This document shows positions 35,009 to 55,618 of a DNA stretch of 64,000 nucleotides, piece after piece. The stretch lies in the sequence record ON862890.1; one strand, given 5' to 3'. The notes under the pieces were generated by a model, which was given only the letters and a program-made list of their open reading frames with translations, was not told where the DNA came from and made no database searches. The translations under genes and the position numbers were made by a program. Source of the DNA: Escherichia phage A221. Within the stretch, counting starts at the first letter, position 1. The number at the start of each line of letters is the position of its first letter.

Positions 35009-35416
35009 TCAGTGCTCCCGCGCCGGAAGAACTCCCACTGGTTCGATGCCATCCAACAGCAGGGAGTTCACACCCACATTACTCAGTCTGATCAAGATCG
35101 TTCCCCCTGGGTTAACTTCAAAGATACTCATCCCATTTCCAACCGCGTCGTTGTTAACGAACACGCCCTGAGTTGCGATTCGTACTGGTTTATCTGTGTC
35201 ATTCATGATCTTGAACGTCACGATTATATCCGATGTTGTACCCAGTCGTCCAACCATGCGTTGCTTCAGCTTGGCGTAGAATGATGGATTAAAGGTGATA
35301 ATGATGCTGTTGTTCTGAGAGTAATAAATACTTGCTGAAATGTATGGTATCTTCCCTTCATCGCCATGCCGCAGGAGAGGAATTGTGGTCTTCCAGTATG
35401 GCTTGAGGGTGCTCAT
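35009..35416 (-). CDS. hypothetical protein
   Basis: Minus-strand ORF; the C-terminal 135 codons look protein-like; start uncertain (ATG 35416, 35488 or further); stop codon abuts stop of plus gene 34280-35008. Confidence 0.3.
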   Translation of the reverse strand: MSTLKPYWKTTIPLLRHGDEGKIPYISASIYYSQNNSIIITFNPSFYAKLKQRMVGRLGTTSDIIVTFKIMNDTDKPVRIATQGVFVNNDAVGNGMSIFEVNPGGTILIRLSNVGVNSLLLDGIEPVGVLPAREH

Positions 35417-35687
35417 GTTCTCATCAAAGCAACCTAAAGGTACGAGTTTCTGGAAGGGCTGGAACTCTTGCACGATGATGTCCAGCATACCCTTGTCACA
35501 AGTAGGAACGCTGGCCGACAACGTCACAGGTACAGTGCGCACTTCTGGGTTCCAGAATTCGGAAACAGAAATTATTGGCGTGACAAAGATGCGACAGCTC
35601 GTAAACAAGAGCATCGAGCATGCCAACAACAATCTACTGATCCCGCGCATCAGGGTCACAACATATCTCCACAGCAAAGGTGCTATT

Positions 35688-48261: not shown

Positions 48262-48432
48262 ATGACAGAACCATTCAAGAAAGCTGGTCTAGACACCATC
48301 GACCTCAGCTTTAAACCGAGCGAAACGCTGATGAGTCAGATTGAACTCAATCGCGACTTCCTTGAATATATGCTGGTCAAGCCGGAAGGTGAGGCCGAAG
48401 ACAACCCTGAAGAAGGCAATAACGATGATTGA
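48262..48432 (+). CDS. small acidic protein (56 aa), translationally coupled to vWA gene
   Basis: Not in track; hand translation MTEPFKKAGLDTIDLSF...EGNNDD; stop TGA overlaps vWA start in ATGATTGA arrangement. Confidence 0.3.
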   Translation: MTEPFKKAGLDTIDLSFKPSETLMSQIELNRDFLEYMLVKPEGEAEDNPEEGNNDD

Positions 48433-50626
48433 ATCATTAGAATTTAAGAATGCGGTTGCGACTGCTGCCCCGTCCAACCATGTAATCGTTGTAGACATTT
48501 CTGGCTCTATGTACCGTGCACTCCCTGAAGTCCGTAAGCATCTGAAGGAGAACCTGCCTTCCCTGGTGAAACCGGAAGACACTGTGAGTGTTCTATACTT
48601 CTCATCTCGTGGCGACTTTGGCACTGTGTTCGCTGGTCGCCAGGTTAGTGCTGCGTCTGACCTGAGCGAGCTGAACAAACTGATCGACCGCTTCCTACAA
48701 CCATCTGGCTGTACTGGTTTTGTTGAGCCGTTGAAACTGGCGATGGACACTGCTCGTGGCCTGAAGAAGCCTGGCTATGTCAACAACCTGGCGTTCATGA
48801 CTGACGGGTATGACAACTGCTGGCGTACCAACGAAATTCTACTGGTTGCTGAGACCCTGCCATTTGCTTTCGATAACATTACATTTATCGAATATGGCTG
48901 GTACTGTAACCGCGAACTGCTGGCGCAGATGGCCGAACGCTCTGGTGCTACTCACGTGTTTGCCGAAGGTCAGACCGAATACCAGACCGAGCTGGAAAAC
49001 GTGCTGAAGTCATCAGTGCCGAAGGTGGTTGTTGATGTGCCTCTGTTATACACCCATGCTATCTATGTTGAAAACGGCGTAGCAACTGTTCTGGCGGTAC
49101 AGCCGGATGAAGACCATCCTATCGGCCACGTGAGCATCCCTGAGAGCGTCACCAAGCTGTGGGTTGTAAACCCTAACATGATCGACCAGATGGATAGCCT
49201 GACGGACATCCAGGCGGCATACGTGCTGGCGTTCTACGGCGTACACATCATGGACGCGGACCTGGTGTGGGCTGCACTGAAGAAAACGGGTGACGTTCGC
49301 TTCATCAAACAGTACAGCAACTGCTTCACCAAGCAGGACTACTCCAACATCAAGAACGATCTGGTTCAGGCGATTGTTGACGACCAGCTGCGCGGCGTTG
49401 ACGGTATTGACTATGACCTGGTTCCAGCTGAAGATGCGACCACCGTCGTTGATGTGCTGACGTACCTGGCTGAAGCTGGTGTGCCTGTTGCTACCAAGCA
49501 TCCGATGTTCTCCTATAAGAGCATCGGGCGCGGTACTGTGCAGAAAACCGACGACACCGAAGACAAGCTGGCAGAACAGATCGCGAATGCTCAGTCCAAA
49601 GAAGAGCGTAAAGCCCTGGCTCTCAAGCTGGCAGAGCACGAAGAGTGGAACCCGACGTTCGAACCTACCAACGACCTGGGTGTTGTGCCAATCAGCGATT
49701 TGGTCTATAACTCCGAGCGCCCGAACATCAGTGTGCGTACAATTCAACACGGTACTGTGGCTGTGCCTGAATTCGCACAGAAGAAGTTTGGCCTGCCTGA
49801 AGAACTGGATACTTTCCAGTGGCGCAACTACACCATCGTCAAAGACGGTATCATTAACGTGAAGACTCTGCCGTTCAAGGCTGATATCGAAGTTGTACAG
49901 AAGCTGATCGAAATGGGTGTCCACGTGTTTGGTGGTCCGGAAGTGTTCATCCTGAACCTGGAAAGCGTACCGCTGGTCAACCGCGCCATGGTCAAAAACA
50001 TCAGTGCTGCTCAGTTCTTTGCGGATAATGTCCGTCTGGAAGCCCTGAAAGGCAAGCAGAAGGTGCTGAAGTTCTATCGAGACGCCCTGGTTGGTAAGGG
50101 CAACGCCAAAGGCCTGGCAGTACAGTACGGCGCTGAGGCGGCCGAGTTCCTGTCCTCCTACGGCATCCGCGATTACGGCTTCTCACCGAAGACTGAGACC
50201 AAAGAGTCTACCGACTTCTACATGAGCCGTGAGCTGAACGTGAAGATCGCTGGCGCTTCTTCTCTACCGTCTATCGCAGCGGTACAGAAGAAGATTGCCG
50301 AGAACAAGAAACTCAATGCTGGTGACTTGTTCATCGCCAATGCGCTGAAGGAGTACGAAGCATTCGTGAAGTCTCCTATGATCACTGCCGTGCCTGAAGC
50401 CTTACAGAAACAGCTGATCGAAAACTGGATCGACGCTGCTGCCAAGGCGGCCATCACCGAAGTCCGTGCCCTGAACAAGACACTGTCTAAAGTGGTGTAT
50501 GGTATCGTTGCTGGCCACGGCTGGTTCACCGACCTCGACCTGGAAGAGTCCACCATGGAAGTTGAAGTGGATGGCGTGAAGTACAAGGTCACTGCCGAAC
50601 TGACAGAGAAAGAAATCAAAATCTAA
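48425..50626 (+). CDS. von Willebrand factor A (vWA) domain protein
   Basis: ATG at M29 of track ORF (codon 1 TTG); VVDISGSM MIDAS motif (DxSxS) and downstream MTDGYDN; about 500-aa C-terminal extension of unknown function. Confidence 0.6.
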   Translation: MIESLEFKNAVATAAPSNHVIVVDISGSMYRALPEVRKHLKENLPSLVKPEDTVSVLYFSSRGDFGTVFAGRQVSAASDLSELNKLIDRFLQPSGCTGFVEPLKLAMDTARGLKKPGYVNNLAFMTDGYDNCWRTNEILLVAETLPFAFDNITFIEYGWYCNRELLAQMAERSGATHVFAEGQTEYQTELENVLKSSVPKVVVDVPLLYTHAIYVENGVATVLAVQPDEDHPIGHVSIPESVTKLWVVNPNMIDQMDSLTDIQAAYVLAFYGVHIMDADLVWAALKKTGDVRFIKQYSNCFTKQDYSNIKNDLVQAIVDDQLRGVDGIDYDLVPAEDATTVVDVLTYLAEAGVPVATKHPMFSYKSIGRGTVQKTDDTEDKLAEQIANAQSKEERKALALKLAEHEEWNPTFEPTNDLGVVPISDLVYNSERPNISVRTIQHGTVAVPEFAQKKFGLPEELDTFQWRNYTIVKDGIINVKTLPFKADIEVVQKLIEMGVHVFGGPEVFILNLESVPLVNRAMVKNISAAQFFADNVRLEALKGKQKVLKFYRDALVGKGNAKGLAVQYGAEAAEFLSSYGIRDYGFSPKTETKESTDFYMSRELNVKIAGASSLPSIAAVQKKIAENKKLNAGDLFIANALKEYEAFVKSPMITAVPEALQKQLIENWIDAAAKAAITEVRALNKTLSKVVYGIVAGHGWFTDLDLEESTMEVEVDGVKYKVTAELTEKEIKI

Positions 50627-50633
50627 TCCAACG

Positions 50634-50658
50634 GGCGGGGCAACCCGCCTTTCTTTGG
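50634..50658 (+). terminator. intrinsic terminator after vWA gene
   Basis: GGCGGG-gcaa-CCCGCC followed by tttctttggg. Confidence 0.6.
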
Positions 50659-51413: not shown

Positions 51414-51788
51414 ATGAAAAAGTTAATCCTCGCTGTTGCCCTGCTGGGCGCTTCCTTTGCTGCTGTTTCCGCCCCTCCTGTCATCACCGGAGTGTCTACC
51501 AACGGTGTTTATGCTTTCAAGGCGTATGGCCAAGACCTCGTTCTGTATAAGAACGGGAAGATGATTGAGCGCTGCGTATCAGACGACGTGAATCGTGGGA
51601 TCGACAATCAGGGTAGCCCATACGTCCTGGACATCTATTCCTGCTCCAACGGGACGAAGTCCTTTGGCGTCAAGACCTTTGGCAACGTCGCCGACGGTGG
51701 CTGGGGCTTCATGTTCGAAACCCGCAACCACCACCCGGTCAAGACCATGCAAGAAGAGTTCTTGATCTCTGTCGGGGGTACGTTATGA
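51414..51788 (+). CDS. putative secreted protein (signal peptide)
   Basis: ATG at M8 of track ORF (codon 1 TTG); MKKLILAVALLGASFAAVSAPP is a signal-peptide-like N-terminus with AxA-type cleavage site. Confidence 0.45.
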   Translation: MKKLILAVALLGASFAAVSAPPVITGVSTNGVYAFKAYGQDLVLYKNGKMIERCVSDDVNRGIDNQGSPYVLDIYSCSNGTKSFGVKTFGNVADGGWGFMFETRNHHPVKTMQEEFLISVGGTL

Positions 51789-52072: not shown

Positions 52073-52264
52073 TTTGGATAAAGAATTGGTTTGGGAAATT
52101 GTGAAGGGTGTCCTAGTAATAATCGCGGTGGTTTTCATCTTGGGTGGGAACTTCTTCTATTGGTTATTCCGATCCGACCAGAAACGTCGCGAACGCAAGG
52201 AGAAAGAGAGAAAGGATCGATGGATGCGCTAACTAAGGGATAACCCTATATCCCGAGGTGTGTC

Positions 52265-52714
52265 ATGTTCCTTACATCTTTTATTGACTGGTTGAACATC
52301 ATTAACGGCCTGAGGATTCCTGTTGGGAACCTCGGGCTTTCTCGTTCTTCTATGCCGCAAATCGATGCCGACAAACAAGAAGATTTTCACAAATATCTTG
52401 AAGACAACGGCGTGTCCATAGATGCTGTGCAAGTGCCCATCAAAATGCTTCGTCTCACCCAGAACGAAATCAACAAGATGAAGGTCTGGAAGATCATGAA
52501 GAACATCAGAAATAAGAAACCTATGGGTCGAGTTTGGGTGTCTTCTGACAATTACGTTGTTGACGGTTCTCACCGATTTGTCGCTGCGTTGAACATGGAC
52601 GGCAAACAGCGCATGAAGGTCTACAAAGTTGATTTGCCAGCGATGGAATTTGTTAAACTCGCTAAACAGTTTCAGGGTGTGCGATACAGAACGGTCTCAG
52701 ATTCGAGATACTAA
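52265..52714 (+). CDS. ParB-like nuclease domain protein
   Basis: 149 aa; VVDGSHRFVAA matches the ParB/Srx DGxHR motif. Confidence 0.5.
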   Translation: MFLTSFIDWLNIINGLRIPVGNLGLSRSSMPQIDADKQEDFHKYLEDNGVSIDAVQVPIKMLRLTQNEINKMKVWKIMKNIRNKKPMGRVWVSSDNYVVDGSHRFVAALNMDGKQRMKVYKVDLPAMEFVKLAKQFQGVRYRTVSDSRY

Positions 52715-52715
52715 T

Positions 52716-53549
52716 ATGGACGTCTATTCAGAACTTATCGAAATAGGAGCGAAACGTCATTTCGTAAACAAATATCTTTCGCTCATTTCTTCTTTTAGTC
52801 ATTACCAAGGCGTCGGGGAGAAGCATCACATATTACCTGTGGCATTGTTCCCCGAATATGCCACGGAATACGAAAACATCGTCAAACTGCCTCATAGGGT
52901 TCATTATATTGCCCATGTGTGTCTTGCTCTTGCGTTACCAGGTTCATGTATGGTAAATGCGATTATGATTTTGAAGCGGTTAGATAGTAGAGTCAACTCA
53001 CACCTGTTTGCGAAAATGCGCAAGAGATTCGCCGAAAGGCTTTCTGTGGTGAATGCAGGGGAAAATAATCCCATGTATGGCAAGAAGAGATCCCAGAAGG
53101 CAAAGAAAAAGACCTCGGAGTCTCTTAGAAATTTTTATAAATCTAAAAGAAAAGAAGATCCAGATTTAAAAGAATTTTTCTCGGAAAGGAATTCTAAAAT
53201 AAAACGGGGAAAAGATCACCATTCTTATGGGAATAAATTGACCAATAATCTTACTCCAGAACAAGAACGATGTAGAATAGAATCGGTCACCAAGACTTCC
53301 CGTGAAACCATGCCCTGGGAGAAGCCAAGATGGAAACCAGAAAGGGACAAATGGTGGTGTTGGGCTGCACATATACACTATCACATATTGAAAGGTAAGA
53401 CGAGAGGGGAAGCCCTGAAACAAGTATTCGGTTCCAATGACGCAGAAATTTGGGCACAGGTTCGGCCAATTATTCTACGGTTGGATAACGGTTGGGACCC
53501 TTTAACTTGCGAAAAATGGGTTAATCGTTATGGGGTGGAATACCAGTAA
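52716..53549 (+). CDS. HNH homing endonuclease with NUMOD3-like motifs
   Basis: ATG at M30 of track ORF; HHILPVALFPEYATEYENIVKLPHRVHYIAH HNH core; two NPMYGKK / HHSYGNK NUMOD3-like repeats; starts 1 nt after ParB-like gene stop. Confidence 0.75.
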   Translation: MDVYSELIEIGAKRHFVNKYLSLISSFSHYQGVGEKHHILPVALFPEYATEYENIVKLPHRVHYIAHVCLALALPGSCMVNAIMILKRLDSRVNSHLFAKMRKRFAERLSVVNAGENNPMYGKKRSQKAKKKTSESLRNFYKSKRKEDPDLKEFFSERNSKIKRGKDHHSYGNKLTNNLTPEQERCRIESVTKTSRETMPWEKPRWKPERDKWWCWAAHIHYHILKGKTRGEALKQVFGSNDAEIWAQVRPIILRLDNGWDPLTCEKWVNRYGVEYQ

Positions 53550-53643
53550 ACCACCCGTTTCTGAATACGATAGTTTATTGAATCCCTTTACTCATCATGG
53601 TGAGCCGCCTATCATTTCATCCAATGAAATAAGGAGAATCACC

Positions 53644-54330
53644 ATGAAACGTTTAATCCTCGGGGTTGTGCTGGCTGGTCTGGCATTACCCGCCGCTACC
53701 AAGCTGAACTCCACAGGTGATAAACTGTGGTCCGACCTTTCCTATTGTGCTGGGTTCTCCCAGGCGGTTGCCATCGACAAGTCTGGTTCCATAGAGAACT
53801 TCGCTGAACTCTGGAACACAGGCAACGTCTCCACCGCTGTCGTCAATGCCGGAATTGAGTTCAACCGTTACAAACAGGGAGCCTATAACCTCAAGGGCTA
53901 CCTCAATGACGAAGAATTTAACCGTGGAGGCATGGAGGCTGGCGATTTGATCATGACTGGGCGTATGGGCACCCAAGGCCGAATGACAGTCAGACAGTGC
54001 CGTTCGCTCCCTTCTCCGGCATTACAGAAGGGGGTGCAGATAGGCCGCCGCCACCTGAACCTTATCAACGATGGCAACCAGTGCGTCAAAGTATTCGAAT
54101 ACAGCGCTACGCAGACCTCTGATCGCGTCCTGAAGAAGGAATGGCGCACCCGCGCTCTTGGTCTCAGGGCATGGTTGGTGGAGAACGATTATTACTTTGA
54201 AGACAGGGTTCAGAACGGTCTGAAAGACCTGGCCACGAATCTGAGCGTGAACCTTGATGATCCTCGCATGTCGCGCGAACTCCAGCAGACTCGTGTTGAC
54301 TGCGACAATATGATGAAGGAGAACGAGTGA
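53644..54330 (+). CDS. putative secreted/periplasmic protein
   Basis: ATG at M39 of track ORF with aaggag RBS; N-terminal MKRLILGVVLAGLALPAATK hydrophobic signal; 228 aa. Confidence 0.45.
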   Translation: MKRLILGVVLAGLALPAATKLNSTGDKLWSDLSYCAGFSQAVAIDKSGSIENFAELWNTGNVSTAVVNAGIEFNRYKQGAYNLKGYLNDEEFNRGGMEAGDLIMTGRMGTQGRMTVRQCRSLPSPALQKGVQIGRRHLNLINDGNQCVKVFEYSATQTSDRVLKKEWRTRALGLRAWLVENDYYFEDRVQNGLKDLATNLSVNLDDPRMSRELQQTRVDCDNMMKENE

Positions 54331-54656
54331 TGAAATGTAAAATCCTGCTCTTGTTGGTACTGATAGCCGGGTGTGTAAATGCCGCGCCACCGTCTAAACT
54401 GAACACATGTGTGGCATGGATGGAGACGTATCAGCAGTTCCACCCAGATGACAAAGACACATCTATCCTCCTGTCCGACTTCGAGGGGGAGCTGAAGCGC
54501 CTTGATCTGTTCAGTGTTGATCAGATAGAGAATGCGCTGGATCTTCCCATGATGCTGACTGCGGCTGATAACAGTCCACAAACGAAGAAAGACCTGATGT
54601 ATTGCCGGGGAATTGCCCAGGACTTTGTCGGATTTCAAAATAAAGTTTCGGGTTAA
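54330..54656 (+). CDS. putative lipoprotein
   Basis: ATG overlapping upstream TGA (gtgATGa); aaggag RBS; MKCKILLLLVLIAGCVNA with lipobox L-I-A-G-C. Confidence 0.5.
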   Translation: MKCKILLLLVLIAGCVNAAPPSKLNTCVAWMETYQQFHPDDKDTSILLSDFEGELKRLDLFSVDQIENALDLPMMLTAADNSPQTKKDLMYCRGIAQDFVGFQNKVSG

Positions 54657-54695: not shown

Positions 54696-55562
54696 ATGCT
54701 CCTGACCAAAACAATCGCTGCGGCGATTATCGAAAAGAATAAGGCTTTTGCCCCCAACGCAGCCAAAGTTATGTTGGTACACGAAGACGCTCGCGTGATC
54801 TTCGCCGAGAAGTTCGAGATGGGCGCGAAGTTCTGGTATGCCGACAACTTACGTGAGAGCAAACTTCAGGGTATCATCCACAAACTGACTCTGGTCGCCA
54901 AGCGTAATGACCAGGGTGACTGGGTCGGCGTTTCTGACTTCAGTACGAAGATCACCCCAAAGGCTCCGCTTTCTCGTCAAGAGCGCATTCTACAAGCCCA
55001 GGAAAAGCTGCGTGCGGCTCGGAGTACTCCAAAGGCGAAACCAGATGCAAGCCCTGTCATCAAGCCAGCGGTTGTTCCTAAGTCCAAATACCTCCCTCCC
55101 GTGAGTCAAAAGGCTGTGGAGCAATTGGTTGAGAAGCGCAAGGGTGACGTTGTGATGAAGTCTGACTCTTCAGTGGAGCCGTTCAAGCCGGATCCAGCAG
55201 AAGTACAGGCACTAGCAGAAAAGGTAAAGAATTCACAATTCATTTCCCTGCGTGAACTTGAACCGCCTACTCGCCGTCGTGTCGCCAACGAGCTGTTTGT
55301 GTCGTTCAGGTCGGATGGCAAGATCGTCCTGTGCAAAGCCCTGCGCGATGCAATCCCTTGGACAACTCTGAACATGATGGTCACTCGCGACTTCAAGCGT
55401 TTTGGTATCATGCAAGGCAAGGACTACAACGTCAACCAGAGCGGGACTTATGTTAATCGCGCCATGTGCGACAAATTGACCTTCCCAGAAGACACCGGAA
55501 CGATCCGTGTCGTTCTGAATTGGGATGACAATCTGAACATGTATGTTGGCGATTTCCAATAA
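54696..55562 (+). CDS. hypothetical protein
   Basis: ATG one codon after track GTG start; gaagga RBS; 288 aa. Confidence 0.4.
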   Translation: MLLTKTIAAAIIEKNKAFAPNAAKVMLVHEDARVIFAEKFEMGAKFWYADNLRESKLQGIIHKLTLVAKRNDQGDWVGVSDFSTKITPKAPLSRQERILQAQEKLRAARSTPKAKPDASPVIKPAVVPKSKYLPPVSQKAVEQLVEKRKGDVVMKSDSSVEPFKPDPAEVQALAEKVKNSQFISLRELEPPTRRRVANELFVSFRSDGKIVLCKALRDAIPWTTLNMMVTRDFKRFGIMQGKDYNVNQSGTYVNRAMCDKLTFPEDTGTIRVVLNWDDNLNMYVGDFQ

Positions 55563-55618
55563 TCAATAACCTCGGGCGGCTTATCATAAAGCTGCCCTTT
55601 CATTTGAGTGACTATATC

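What the first reader, a model, noticed from the sequence alone, without database searches (positions are those of the whole stretch)
53644..54656. Signal-peptide protein followed by an overlapping lipoprotein gene, a spanin-like or exclusion-like pair
A 228-aa protein with an N-terminal hydrophobic signal is followed by a 108-aa lipoprotein (lipobox LIAGC) whose ATG overlaps the upstream TGA. The arrangement resembles separated i-spanin/o-spanin pairs or periplasmic superinfection-exclusion pairs, although the first protein is not obviously coiled-coil. A third secreted protein lies nearby at 51414-51788, and no holin or endolysin was recognised in the window.
Basis: partly seen in the sequence, partly recalled or inferred. 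Interest (0 to 1): 0.45.

Follow-up and report, generated by a model that had tools for sequence, protein, structure and literature searches.

The report
Exported phage protein pair, doubtful spanin
Two overlapping genes of a Vi01-like (Kuttervirus) phage encode proteins exported to the periplasm; public records already call them a spanin pair, but comparison with relatives suggests that label is probably wrong and their real role is unknown.

Summary
A 228-aa ORF (53644-54330) with an N-terminal hydrophobic signal ends in TGATG, which starts a 108-aa ORF (54330-54656) carrying a canonical lipobox, LIAG|C. The window is a Kuttervirus (Ackermannviridae) genome. The same pair is already annotated i-spanin/o-spanin in Salmonella phage Marshall and listed in the SpaninDB of Kongari et al. 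2018. So neither the feature nor the spanin idea is new.

The spanin reading does not survive comparison.
- The lipobox cysteine is present in about 7 of 48 homologue clusters. All others have plain AxA signal-peptidase-I sites.
- The 228-aa family has 12-16-residue hydrophobic cores followed by AxA, like cleaved signal peptides and unlike 19-20-residue spanin anchors.
- The small protein models confidently as a compact five-helix bundle with no structural relatives.
- No coiled coil is predicted in the larger protein, and there is no homology to any characterised spanin.
- SpaninDB flags the entry "too long", accepted on the student annotator's word, and lists near-identical or orthologous phages as spanin-less.

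Best reading: a translationally coupled, strongly conserved pair of Sec-exported, disulfide-bonded periplasmic proteins, lipid-tethered only in this clade. I guess an exclusion or envelope-protection role, which is untested. Interest is low to moderate.

The parts
53631..53636 (+). Shine-Dalgarno AAGGAG for gene A
   Evidence: Read directly. The same RBS is annotated in Marshall.
53644..54330 (+). Gene A, 228 aa. Exported protein of phrog_4260 (unknown function). Four cysteines (C35, C119, C147, C220): invariant among close relatives, two invariant and two nearly invariant once distant homologues are added. Annotated 'i-spanin' in phage Marshall.
   Evidence: dN/dS is 0.04-0.07.
53644..53700 (+). 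Predicted Sec signal peptide of A (about residues 1-19): MKR, a 12-residue h-region LILGVVLAGLAL, then P-A-A-T. Relatives have AAA|K, ASA|K or AHA|G here.
   Evidence: Alignments. Distant homologues have AWS|E, ASA|A, ANA|G and VHA|R. Hydrophobic runs are 12-16 aa, against 19-20 aa in lambda Rz and T4 PseT.3. SignalP was not available, so the cleavage is inferred.
54317..54322 (+). Shine-Dalgarno AAGGAG for gene B, embedded in the last codons of A (MMKENE). Implies translational coupling.
   Evidence: Read directly. The upstream sequence gaaggagaa(c/t)ga is conserved in all the related loci listed.
54330..54656 (+). Gene B, 108 aa. Exported small helical protein of phrog_3843 (labelled 'Rz-like spanin'). 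Invariant C27 and C92.
   Evidence: The AlphaFold2 model has pLDDT 84, with means of 90-96 per ten-residue block across residues 21-100, and five helices.
54330..54374 (+). Signal peptide of B with lipobox L-I-A-G-C (Cys15 codon at 54372-54374). It is immediately followed by a signal-peptidase-I type site, VNA|AP.
   Evidence: Read directly. The lipobox is present in only 6-7 canonical clusters of 48, and one close relative has LMAGS.
50633..50650 (+). Terminator-like hairpin upstream of the gene block that contains the pair
   Evidence: A terminator is annotated at the equivalent place in Marshall.
55574..55597 (+). Terminator-like hairpin after the gene downstream of B. Probable 3' end of the transcription unit.
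54696..55562 (+). Syntenic downstream gene, 288 aa, phrog_3828 (unknown function), no export signal noted. Same block in the Kuttervirus-, Limestonevirus- and Klebsiella-type loci; not detected downstream of B in the phiMAM1-type loci. Fast-evolving.

Best explanation
Genes A and B form a translationally coupled two-gene module that is core to Ackermannviridae. It encodes two Sec-exported, disulfide-stabilised periplasmic proteins. It is not a membrane-spanning spanin.

Proposed topology:
- A's N-terminus is a cleavable signal peptide. Cleavage would release a soluble protein of about 209 aa and near-neutral charge. It appears to have two domains, with one conserved cysteine pair falling in each half.
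- B is an acidic five-helix bundle of about 90 aa, with conserved cysteines near its first and last helices.
- In most of the family B is released by signal peptidase I. In the window's clade (Marshall, Maynard, PC3 and P46FS4-like phages) a Cys has arisen in the signal peptide. B is then probably lipidated and tethered by a linker of about 12 residues. The likely site is the outer membrane, because residue +2 is Val.
- That tether is an accessory, clade-specific feature, comparable to the lipidated (MliC) versus soluble (PliC) forms of periplasmic lysozyme inhibitors (from general knowledge).

Proposed function: the two products most likely act together in the periplasm as a binding or blocking complex on an envelope or incoming-phage target. 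I favour a protective or superinfection-exclusion role analogous to, but not homologous with, T4 Spackle.

What is shown: gene structure, coupling, conservation, type of export signals, B's predicted fold, and absence of homology to anything characterised.

What is inferred: signal cleavage, disulfides, A-B complex formation, lipidation in this clade, and the function.
For: 1. Lipobox Cys15 of B is absent from most relatives.
- Of 37 clusters, 30 lack it. Those 30 hold 155 of 205 member sequences.
- All 11 more distant clusters but one (P0076, ISSC) lack it.
- They end instead in VYA|AP, AYA|AP, VLA|AP, VMA|TP, ALA|VP, AQA|AG or ASA|QP.
- A close relative has LMAGS.

2. The A family has short hydrophobic cores.
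- Apolar runs are 12-16 aa and the Kyte-Doolittle 19-residue maximum is 1.29-1.71.
- Lambda Rz has 20 aa and 2.63. T4 PseT.3 has 19 aa and 2.24.
- AxA-type sites follow in all members.

3. Cysteines are conserved in even numbers: C27 and C92 are invariant in B, and four cysteines in A are invariant or nearly so even at 33-37% identity. This fits folded proteins in an oxidising compartment.

4. B models as a compact helical bundle, with block-mean pLDDT of 90 or more over residues 21-100. It has no significant structural neighbour in the PDB or in BFVD outside its own family.

5. The pair is tightly linked. The genes overlap by 1 or 4 nt, and B's Shine-Dalgarno lies inside A in all the loci listed. 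The pairing holds down to 34% identity.

6. Purifying selection is strong.

7. T4 Spackle is annotated as periplasmic in the T4 record, and I recall it as a soluble protein. It shows the same layout: a signal peptide with a lipobox-like LASC followed by AMA|G, one Cys soon after the cleavage site, and one Cys 16 residues from the C-terminus.

8. Mature A (pI 6.8) and B (pI 4.4) are not cationic, so they are not disruptin-like.
Against: - No signal-peptide, lipoprotein or transmembrane predictor could be run. The window's own A is the least clear case: Thr at -1 and a hydrophobicity score of 1.71, just above the classical 1.6 threshold.
- The A model was poor (pLDDT 44), so its fold is unknown.
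- No A-B complex prediction was possible.
- Ackermannviridae otherwise have no recognised outer-membrane disruption gene. A core, constrained envelope-targeted pair remains a candidate for that job.
Confidence: 0.5

Rival explanations
1. It is a genuine but atypical separated two-component spanin, at least in the Marshall/PC3/window clade. A stays anchored in the inner membrane by an uncleaved signal-anchor. Lipidated B sits in the outer membrane. The two bridge the periplasm and fuse or disrupt the membranes at the end of lysis.
For: - The window's B has a perfect lipobox with Val at +2.
- A has an N-terminal hydrophobic segment that a transmembrane predictor would plausibly call a helix; SpaninDB assigns its first 22 residues to the anchor.
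- The adjacent, overlapping genes resemble T4 pseT.3/pseT.2.
- The pair is annotated as a spanin in GenBank and SpaninDB.
- Kutterviruses have no other spanin candidate.
- B is one of only two lipobox ORFs in the window.
- The T4 spanin genes also sit in an early-gene region away from the holin and endolysin genes.
Against: - The lipobox is missing in roughly 85% of homologue clusters and in all deep-branching genera.
- A is halved in phiMAM1- and Bue1-type phages, with the pairing intact.
- A's hydrophobic segment is signal-peptide length with AxA sites.
- B is a compact bundle rather than an extended or proline-rich chain: 4.6% Pro, against 18% in Rz1.
- No coiled coils are predicted.
- At 300 residues this is the longest periplasmic span of all 528 SpaninDB entries, and both proteins are singleton families. 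[quoted passage not shown]'.
- The same paper lists Maynard (99% identical B), Vi01, CBA120, SFP10, AG3 and a Dickeya relative as spanin-less.
- There is no Pfam match to any family, including the spanin families.
Confidence: 0.15
2. It is a periplasmic regulator of lysis timing, that is, an antiholin-like sensor for the lysis inhibition seen in CBA120. In this reading it is functionally analogous to T4 RI, or to the periplasmic domain of holin T.
For: - CBA120 shows T4-like lysis inhibition at high multiplicity of infection. Its authors could identify no holin or antiholin (PMC3184105).
- From my own recollection, not checked here, T4 RI is a small helical periplasmic protein of about 97 aa and holin T is about 218 aa. 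A (228 aa) and B (108 aa) have similar sizes.
- The pair is lineage-restricted, as a partner of a lineage-specific holin would be.
Against: - A lacks the cytoplasmic N-terminal domain and full-length transmembrane helix of a T-type holin.
- The holin annotated in Marshall is a 53-aa two-helix protein with no periplasmic domain to bind.
- There is no positive evidence.
Confidence: 0.12
3. It has some other periplasmic role unrelated to exclusion or lysis. Examples are modulating host envelope physiology, or acting as a chaperone or partner for other phage-exported proteins of the same gene block.
For: - The block also encodes a secreted 124-aa protein and a small one-helix membrane protein.
- The pair has no informative homologues at all.
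Against: Those neighbours are not conserved across the family, whereas A-B is. There is nothing specific in favour.
Confidence: 0.13

Closest known systems
Separated two-component spanins (T4 PseT.3/PseT.2; functional class of lambda Rz/Rz1)
   Same: - Two adjacent, overlapping genes.
- The first protein has an N-terminal hydrophobic segment. In this clade the second has a lipobox.
- Periplasmic cysteines are present.
- The genes lie away from the holin and endolysin genes, in a replication-gene region as in T4.
   Different: - The lipobox is not conserved in orthologues.
- The hydrophobic segment is signal-peptide-like (12-16 aa plus AxA).
- There is no coiled coil.
- B is a compact globular bundle.
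- The combined periplasmic length of 300 aa is the extreme of SpaninDB.
- There is no sequence homology to spanins.
- Orthologous phages are classed as spanin-less by the SpaninDB authors.
T4 Spackle (Sp), periplasmic superinfection-exclusion protein that inhibits the tail lysozyme
   Same: - A small helical exported protein of a T4-related myovirus.
- The signal peptide carries a lipobox-like motif followed by an AxA site.
- One Cys lies just after the cleavage site and one lies 16 residues from the C-terminus.
- The gene sits among replication genes.
   Different: - No detectable sequence similarity (hhalign probability 0.9%), and Spackle is not among the best structural matches.
- Spackle acts alone, whereas B is always paired with A.
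- The Kuttervirus hub protein carries a CHAP/NlpC-P60 domain rather than a lysozyme (PMC3184105).
MliC/PliC-type periplasmic inhibitors (lipidated and soluble forms of one family)
   Same: This family is a precedent for one periplasmic binding protein existing with or without a lipid anchor, as seen for B (from general knowledge).
   Different: There is no homology. Those are beta-barrel proteins, whereas B is all-helical.
Lipoprotein superinfection-exclusion factors (T5 Llp, phi80/N15 Cor)
   Same: In this clade B is a small phage lipoprotein candidate, probably expressed other than from a late promoter.
   Different: In those factors the lipid anchor is integral to function. Here it is missing in most family members. 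No homology was found.

Membership tests
Two-component spanin (i-spanin + o-spanin) | o-spanin is an outer-membrane lipoprotein (lipobox Cys, no Asp at +2): in the window's own protein | tested here: met
   The sequence reads MKCKILLLLVLIAG|CVN, with a canonical I-A-G-C and Val at +2. A regex scan recovers it. LipoP was not available.
Two-component spanin (i-spanin + o-spanin) | The lipoprotein signal is conserved in orthologues, as expected if lipid anchoring is essential to function | tested here: not met
   Only 6 canonical plus 1 doubtful of 37 clusters have it, and 1 (ISSC) of 11 more distant clusters. It is absent in CBA120/Vi01-type, Limestonevirus, Klebsiella, phiMAM1 and Bue1 types and in two deep metagenomic lineages. 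One close relative has Cys replaced by Ser.
Two-component spanin (i-spanin + o-spanin) | i-spanin has an N-terminal transmembrane anchor (type II, uncleaved) | tested here: inconclusive
   Across the family the apolar runs are 12-16 aa and are followed by AxA sites. Hydrophobicity scores are 1.29-1.71, against 2.24-2.63 for PseT.3 and Rz. That looks like a cleavable signal peptide. The window's own copy is borderline (1.71, Thr at -1). SignalP and DeepTMHMM could not be run.
Two-component spanin (i-spanin + o-spanin) | Extended periplasmic domains: helical or coiled-coil i-spanin, and a short, often proline-rich and poorly structured o-spanin | tested here: not met
   B is a compact five-helix bundle with block-mean pLDDT of 90 or more. 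It is 4.6% Pro, against 18.3% in Rz1. The SpaninDB tables give A 0 coiled coils and 35% helix, and B 56% helix. The A model is too poor to add anything.
Two-component spanin (i-spanin + o-spanin) | Sequence homology to an experimentally characterised spanin family | tested here: not met
   There are no Pfam or NCBIfam hits at E <= 0.1. The only 'spanin' label comes from phrog_3843, and every homologue of B found in three independent searches (tblastn of phage records, protein clusters, structure library) is from an Ackermannviridae phage or from unnamed metagenome clusters with no other attribution. Both proteins are SpaninDB singletons.
Two-component spanin (i-spanin + o-spanin) | Adjacent, overlapping or embedded gene architecture | tested here: met
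   The genes share a TGATG 1-nt overlap. The overlap is 1 or 4 nt in relatives.
Two-component spanin (i-spanin + o-spanin) | Required for outer-membrane disruption (complements lambda Rz/Rz1; spherical-cell phenotype when absent) | not testable with these tools
   No experimental report was found in the searchable literature.
T4 Spackle-like periplasmic exclusion protein | Small Sec-exported helical periplasmic protein with a conserved cysteine pair | tested here: met
   B has a signal peptide, five helices, and invariant C27 and C92. Its layout parallels that of Sp.
T4 Spackle-like periplasmic exclusion protein | Homology (sequence or fold) to Spackle | tested here: not met
T4 Spackle-like periplasmic exclusion protein | Binds and inhibits the tail-hub peptidoglycan hydrolase, or blocks superinfection | not testable with these tools
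   This needs binding and plating assays.
T4 RI / holin T lysis-inhibition pair | Fold or sequence similarity to RI or T. T-type holin topology (cytoplasmic N-domain plus a full transmembrane helix) | tested here: not met
   No structural match was found. Only MKR precedes the 12-residue h-region of A.

The most novel reading that the evidence does not exclude
The A-B pair is a new, lineage-specific periplasmic effector of Ackermannviridae with an orphan fold. One version: it is a two-protein inhibitor of the family's unusual CHAP/NlpC-P60 tail-hub hydrolase, a non-homologous Spackle analogue that gives superinfection exclusion. Another version: it is the missing periplasmic component of their unexplained lysis inhibition, or of anchor-independent outer-membrane disruption.
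Probability: 0.25. Interest if true: 0.6.

Novelty: already known. Interest (0 to 1): 0.27.

Why it matters
The practical value is curation. RefSeq and PHROG propagate the label 'Rz-like spanin' or 'i-spanin' to this family across Ackermannviridae records, including proteins that have no lipobox at all, such as CBA120 orf133 and the Bue1, phiMAM1 and Klebsiella phage homologues. The label traces back to one undergraduate-course annotation, which the SpaninDB curators themselves flagged as doubtful.

If the label is wrong, two things follow:
- Ackermannviridae remain without any known outer-membrane disruption function.
- The mechanism of lysis inhibition in CBA120 also remains open.

These phages are widely used in Salmonella and E. 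coli O157 biocontrol. The pair is core, strongly constrained and periplasmic, so it is a reasonable first target for deletion and complementation experiments. By itself the finding is an ordinary exported gene pair of unknown function.

Tried and rejected
- Family and profile searches gave nothing beyond the pair's own PHROG families. This covers Pfam, NCBIfam and PADLOC scans of both proteins and their neighbours, and profile searches of both families against PDB sequences.
- AlphaFold2 of A on a shallow alignment gave pLDDT 44. I judged it unusable and did not use it for fold search.
- Two hhalign tests were negative. B versus A, testing whether B is a paralogue of an A domain, gave only signal-peptide-level similarity at 32% probability. 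B versus T4 Spackle gave nothing.
- Expression timing did not discriminate.
  - I derived the family's late-promoter-like motif, CTAAATA[CT], 22-45 nt upstream of structural genes.
  - No copy lies anywhere near the pair, nor in the homologous 14 kb of Marshall.
  - The annotated Marshall holin and endolysin also lack it, and the T4 spanin genes sit in an early-gene region.
  - The sigma-70-like match upstream of A (53587-53615, 9 of 12) is no better than chance.
- A literature search for Ackermannviridae transcriptomics or lysis genetics found nothing relevant.
- Minus-strand stop-free stretches of 101-148 aa occur over A-B in all relatives. Synonymous sites of the plus-strand frames are saturated, so an antisense protein would not be conserved. 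I rejected these as genes.
- I considered and rejected A as a T-type holin, because its hydrophobic segment is short, poorly conserved and followed by AxA. I also rejected a disruptin-like cationic peptide role, because both mature proteins are neutral or acidic.
Full report
**What is in the sequence**

Gene A runs from ATG 53644 to TGA 54328-54330 and encodes 228 aa. An AAGGAG lies 7 nt upstream of its start. Gene B starts at ATG 54330-54332, which shares one base with A's stop codon (TGATG), and encodes 108 aa ending at 54656. B's AAGGAG lies inside A's last codons.

A begins MKRLILGVVLAGLALPAATK. B begins MKCKILLLLVLIAGCVNAAPP, so it carries a canonical lipobox, I-A-G-C. The other points in the finding also hold:
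- A third secreted protein is encoded at 51414-51788.
- The window has no homologue of the holin or endolysin annotated in the closest well-annotated relative. It ends inside the gp46-like nuclease gene.

**Where the window comes from and what is already recorded**

The region is 97-98% identical to Escherichia phages PC3 and PH4 and to Salmonella phages Marshall and Maynard. These are Kutterviruses of the family Ackermannviridae (Vi01-like).

- In Marshall the two genes are annotated i-spanin (Marshall_94) and o-spanin (Marshall_95).
- RefSeq and PHROG propagate 'Rz-like spanin' (phrog_3843) to B's family. A's family, phrog_4260, is 'unknown function'.
- The pair is an entry in the SpaninDB of Kongari et al. 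2018 (PMC6139136), classed as a 'separated' spanin.

Neither the feature nor the hypothesis is new.

**How good that annotation is**

Kongari et al. state that spanins were called from membrane-localisation signals and adjacency, not from homology or experiment. Their own tables mark the Marshall pair as an outlier:
- It has the longest combined periplasmic length of all 528 systems, at 300 residues.
- A has zero predicted coiled coils and 35% helix. B has 56% helix.
- Both proteins are singleton families, flagged 'Too long?'.
[quoted passage not shown] '.

The same paper lists Vi01, CBA120, PhaxI, ECML-4, SFP10, SJ2, SJ3, AG3, a Dickeya relative and Maynard as spanin-less. Yet Maynard's B is 99% identical to the window's, and all of these phages carry the orthologous pair. 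I found no experimental test of these genes.

**Comparative test of the o-spanin requirement**

B's family is confined to Ackermannviridae. It appears in 281 phage records and 48 protein clusters, with nothing identifiably from outside the family.

The lipobox cysteine occurs only in three places: the Marshall/Maynard/PC3/window clade, a P46FS4-like relative (LLMAGC), and one further cluster (ISSC). One very close relative has LMAGS instead.

All other members have ordinary signal-peptidase-I signals ending just before the conserved (A/T/V)P-x-S/N-x-LN-x-C. These include the CBA120/Vi01/Det7/SFP10 type, Limestonevirus, Klebsiella Taipeivirus-like phages, phiMAM1, Bue1 and two deep metagenomic lineages. 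Examples are VMA|TP, VLA|AP, AYA|AP, ALA|VP, AQA|AG and ASA|QP.

The window's own protein keeps such a site (VNA|AP) directly after the Cys. By parsimony the lipobox is derived and dispensable for the family's conserved function. That is incompatible with an o-spanin, whose lipid anchor is its defining feature.

**Comparative test of the i-spanin requirement**

A's family is even narrower. Only 10 hits appeared among 1.84 billion representative proteins.

Every member has a short n-region, an apolar run of 12-16 residues, a helix-breaking Pro or polar residues, and then an AxA-type site. Examples are AAA|K, ASA|K, AHA|G, AWS|E, ASA|A, ANA|G and VHA|R.

The Kyte-Doolittle 19-residue maxima are 1.29-1.71. 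Lambda Rz scores 2.63 with a 20-residue run, and T4 PseT.3 scores 2.24 with a 19-residue run. This is the profile of a cleaved Sec signal peptide. A transmembrane-helix predictor such as TMHMM, as I recall, often miscalls such peptides as helices.

The window's own copy is the least clear, with Thr at -1 and a score of 1.71. I could not run SignalP, so I rate this test as strongly suggestive rather than closed.

In phiMAM1- and Bue1-type phages A is only 126 or 165 aa, corresponding to the N-terminal domain. It still overlaps B by 4 nt. A protein that must bridge half the periplasm would not be expected to tolerate this.

**Structure and chemistry**

- B models confidently (mean pLDDT 84, with block means of 90-96 over residues 21-100) as a compact five-helix bundle.
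- Invariant C27 and C92 sit near the first and last helices. A has four conserved cysteines, 35/119 and 147/220, one pair per half.
- Even numbers of conserved cysteines fit intramolecular disulfides in folded periplasmic proteins. The pairing itself is my inference.
- A's model was poor (pLDDT 44) and I did not use it.
- Mature A is near neutral and B is acidic, so neither resembles a cationic disruptin.
- Pfam, NCBIfam, PADLOC and PDB-sequence profile searches found nothing.

**Genes, selection and context**

- Both genes are under strong purifying selection. A has dN/dS of 0.04-0.07. B has pN of 0.12-0.14 with saturated synonymous sites.
- The order ParB-like gene, A, B, 288-aa gene holds in the 19 Kuttervirus-, Limestonevirus- and Klebsiella-type loci examined. 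The phiMAM1-type loci keep the ParB-like gene, A and B only.
- The A-B overlap, with B's ribosome-binding site inside A, holds down to 34% identity. This argues for coupled, roughly stoichiometric synthesis and probably a complex.
- The block is bracketed by terminator-like hairpins at 50633-50650 and 55574-55597.
- I recovered the family's late-promoter-like motif, CTAAATA[CT], 22-45 nt upstream of the tail sheath, tail tube, prohead core and other genes.
- No copy of that motif lies within 16 kb of the pair. However, the annotated Marshall holin and endolysin lack it too, and the T4 spanin genes sit among early genes. Timing therefore does not discriminate between readings.
- In Marshall the annotated holin and endolysin lie about 10 kb and 20 kb downstream of the pair.

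**Most likely mechanism**

What is shown is a coupled, conserved pair of exported proteins. What I infer is the following:
- Both signal peptides are removed, giving a soluble A of about 209 aa and a B of about 90 aa.
- The two associate in the periplasm.
- In the window's clade B is additionally lipid-tethered, probably to the outer membrane because residue +2 is Val.

Families of periplasmic binding proteins are known to switch between soluble and lipidated forms. MliC and PliC are an example (from general knowledge).

T4 Spackle offers a close architectural analogy. It has a lipobox-like LASC inside its signal peptide followed by AMA|G, a Cys shortly after the cleavage site, and a Cys 16 residues from the C-terminus. 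It is a small periplasmic protein encoded among replication genes. There is no homology between Spackle and B.

I therefore favour a periplasmic binding or blocking function such as superinfection exclusion or protection from lysis-from-without. My probabilities are about 0.8 that the pair is not a canonical spanin, and about 0.3 for the specific exclusion role.

The rivals are:
- an atypical spanin, at least in this clade (0.15);
- a periplasmic lysis-timing or lysis-inhibition component (0.12), suggested by the unexplained lysis inhibition of CBA120;
- some other periplasmic role (0.13).

**Verdict**

The spanin interpretation is already in the databases but rests on weak provenance and fails the comparative tests. 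The exclusion-like alternative fits the topology but is unproven. The feature is an already catalogued, lineage-restricted pair of exported proteins of unknown function. It matters mainly as a correction to a widely propagated annotation, and as a reminder that the outer-membrane step of lysis in Ackermannviridae is still unexplained.

Noticed in passing
window 52713-53549 (+): A NUMOD3-motif homing endonuclease (Pfam PF07460, E = 7e-9) is inserted between the ParB-like gene and gene A. It is absent at this site in Marshall and in most of the related viral contigs examined. The same enzyme sits at exactly this site in two other contigs: L007 (99% identity) and L018 (74%). This intergenic spot is therefore a recurrent homing site.
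   Followed up: partly
window 3720, 8807, 15318, 19601, 23896, 27437, 34245, 37442 (+): The motif CTAAATA[CT] lies 22-45 nt upstream of the start codons of the tail sheath, tail tube, prohead core, gp14-like, a 1612-aa structural gene and a helicase gene. The full 11-mer CTAAATACCCC occurs three times exactly. It is probably the family's late promoter, the counterpart of T4 TATAAATA. The 2011 CBA120 paper said this sequence had not been identified.
   Followed up: partly
window 35009-35659 (-): This is the second and only other credible lipobox ORF in the window: MRGISRLLLACSMLLFTSC..., about 213-216 aa, equivalent to Marshall_69 'putative conserved lipoprotein'. It has no C-terminal transmembrane helix, so it is not a unimolecular spanin. 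I did not examine whether an adjacent type II membrane protein exists.
   Followed up: no
window 52074-52232 (+): A small (about 52 aa) single-helix membrane protein with a very basic C-terminal tail (RSDQKRRERKEKERKDRWMR). It belongs to phrog_14464 and matches Marshall_92. It is holin-like in outline but is present in only some relatives.
   Followed up: no
window 54330-54656 versus 53644-54330: B's synonymous divergence from CBA120-type phages is saturated (pS about 0.9-1.0). A's divergence for the same phage pairs is lower (pS about 0.6). The window's B allele is 94% identical to that of a P46FS4-like phage but only about 70% identical to those of other Kutterviruses. This suggests allele exchange (mosaicism) at B.
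   Followed up: partly
L029 2759-3052 (-) (T4 gene sp): The T4 Spackle signal peptide contains a canonical-looking lipobox (L-A-S-C) ahead of its AMA|G cleavage site. The T4 record annotates Spackle as periplasmic, and I recall it as a soluble protein. This is a caution against calling phage lipoproteins from the motif alone.
   Followed up: partly
L028 3454-4233 and about 5174 onward (Erwinia phage Bue1): In Bue1 the gene after B is annotated 'lipoprotein' (LLAGC signal). In a related metagenomic contig (L030), a 263-aa gene two genes after B has a precomputed Band_7 hit. In Bue1 a gene annotated 'superinfection exclusion' follows. So other envelope-directed genes lie near the pair in a distant genus.
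   Followed up: no
window 48422-50626 (+): A large (734 aa) protein with an N-terminal von Willebrand factor A domain lies upstream of the block. It is conserved in position even in the most distant relatives (740 aa in L030).
   Followed up: no
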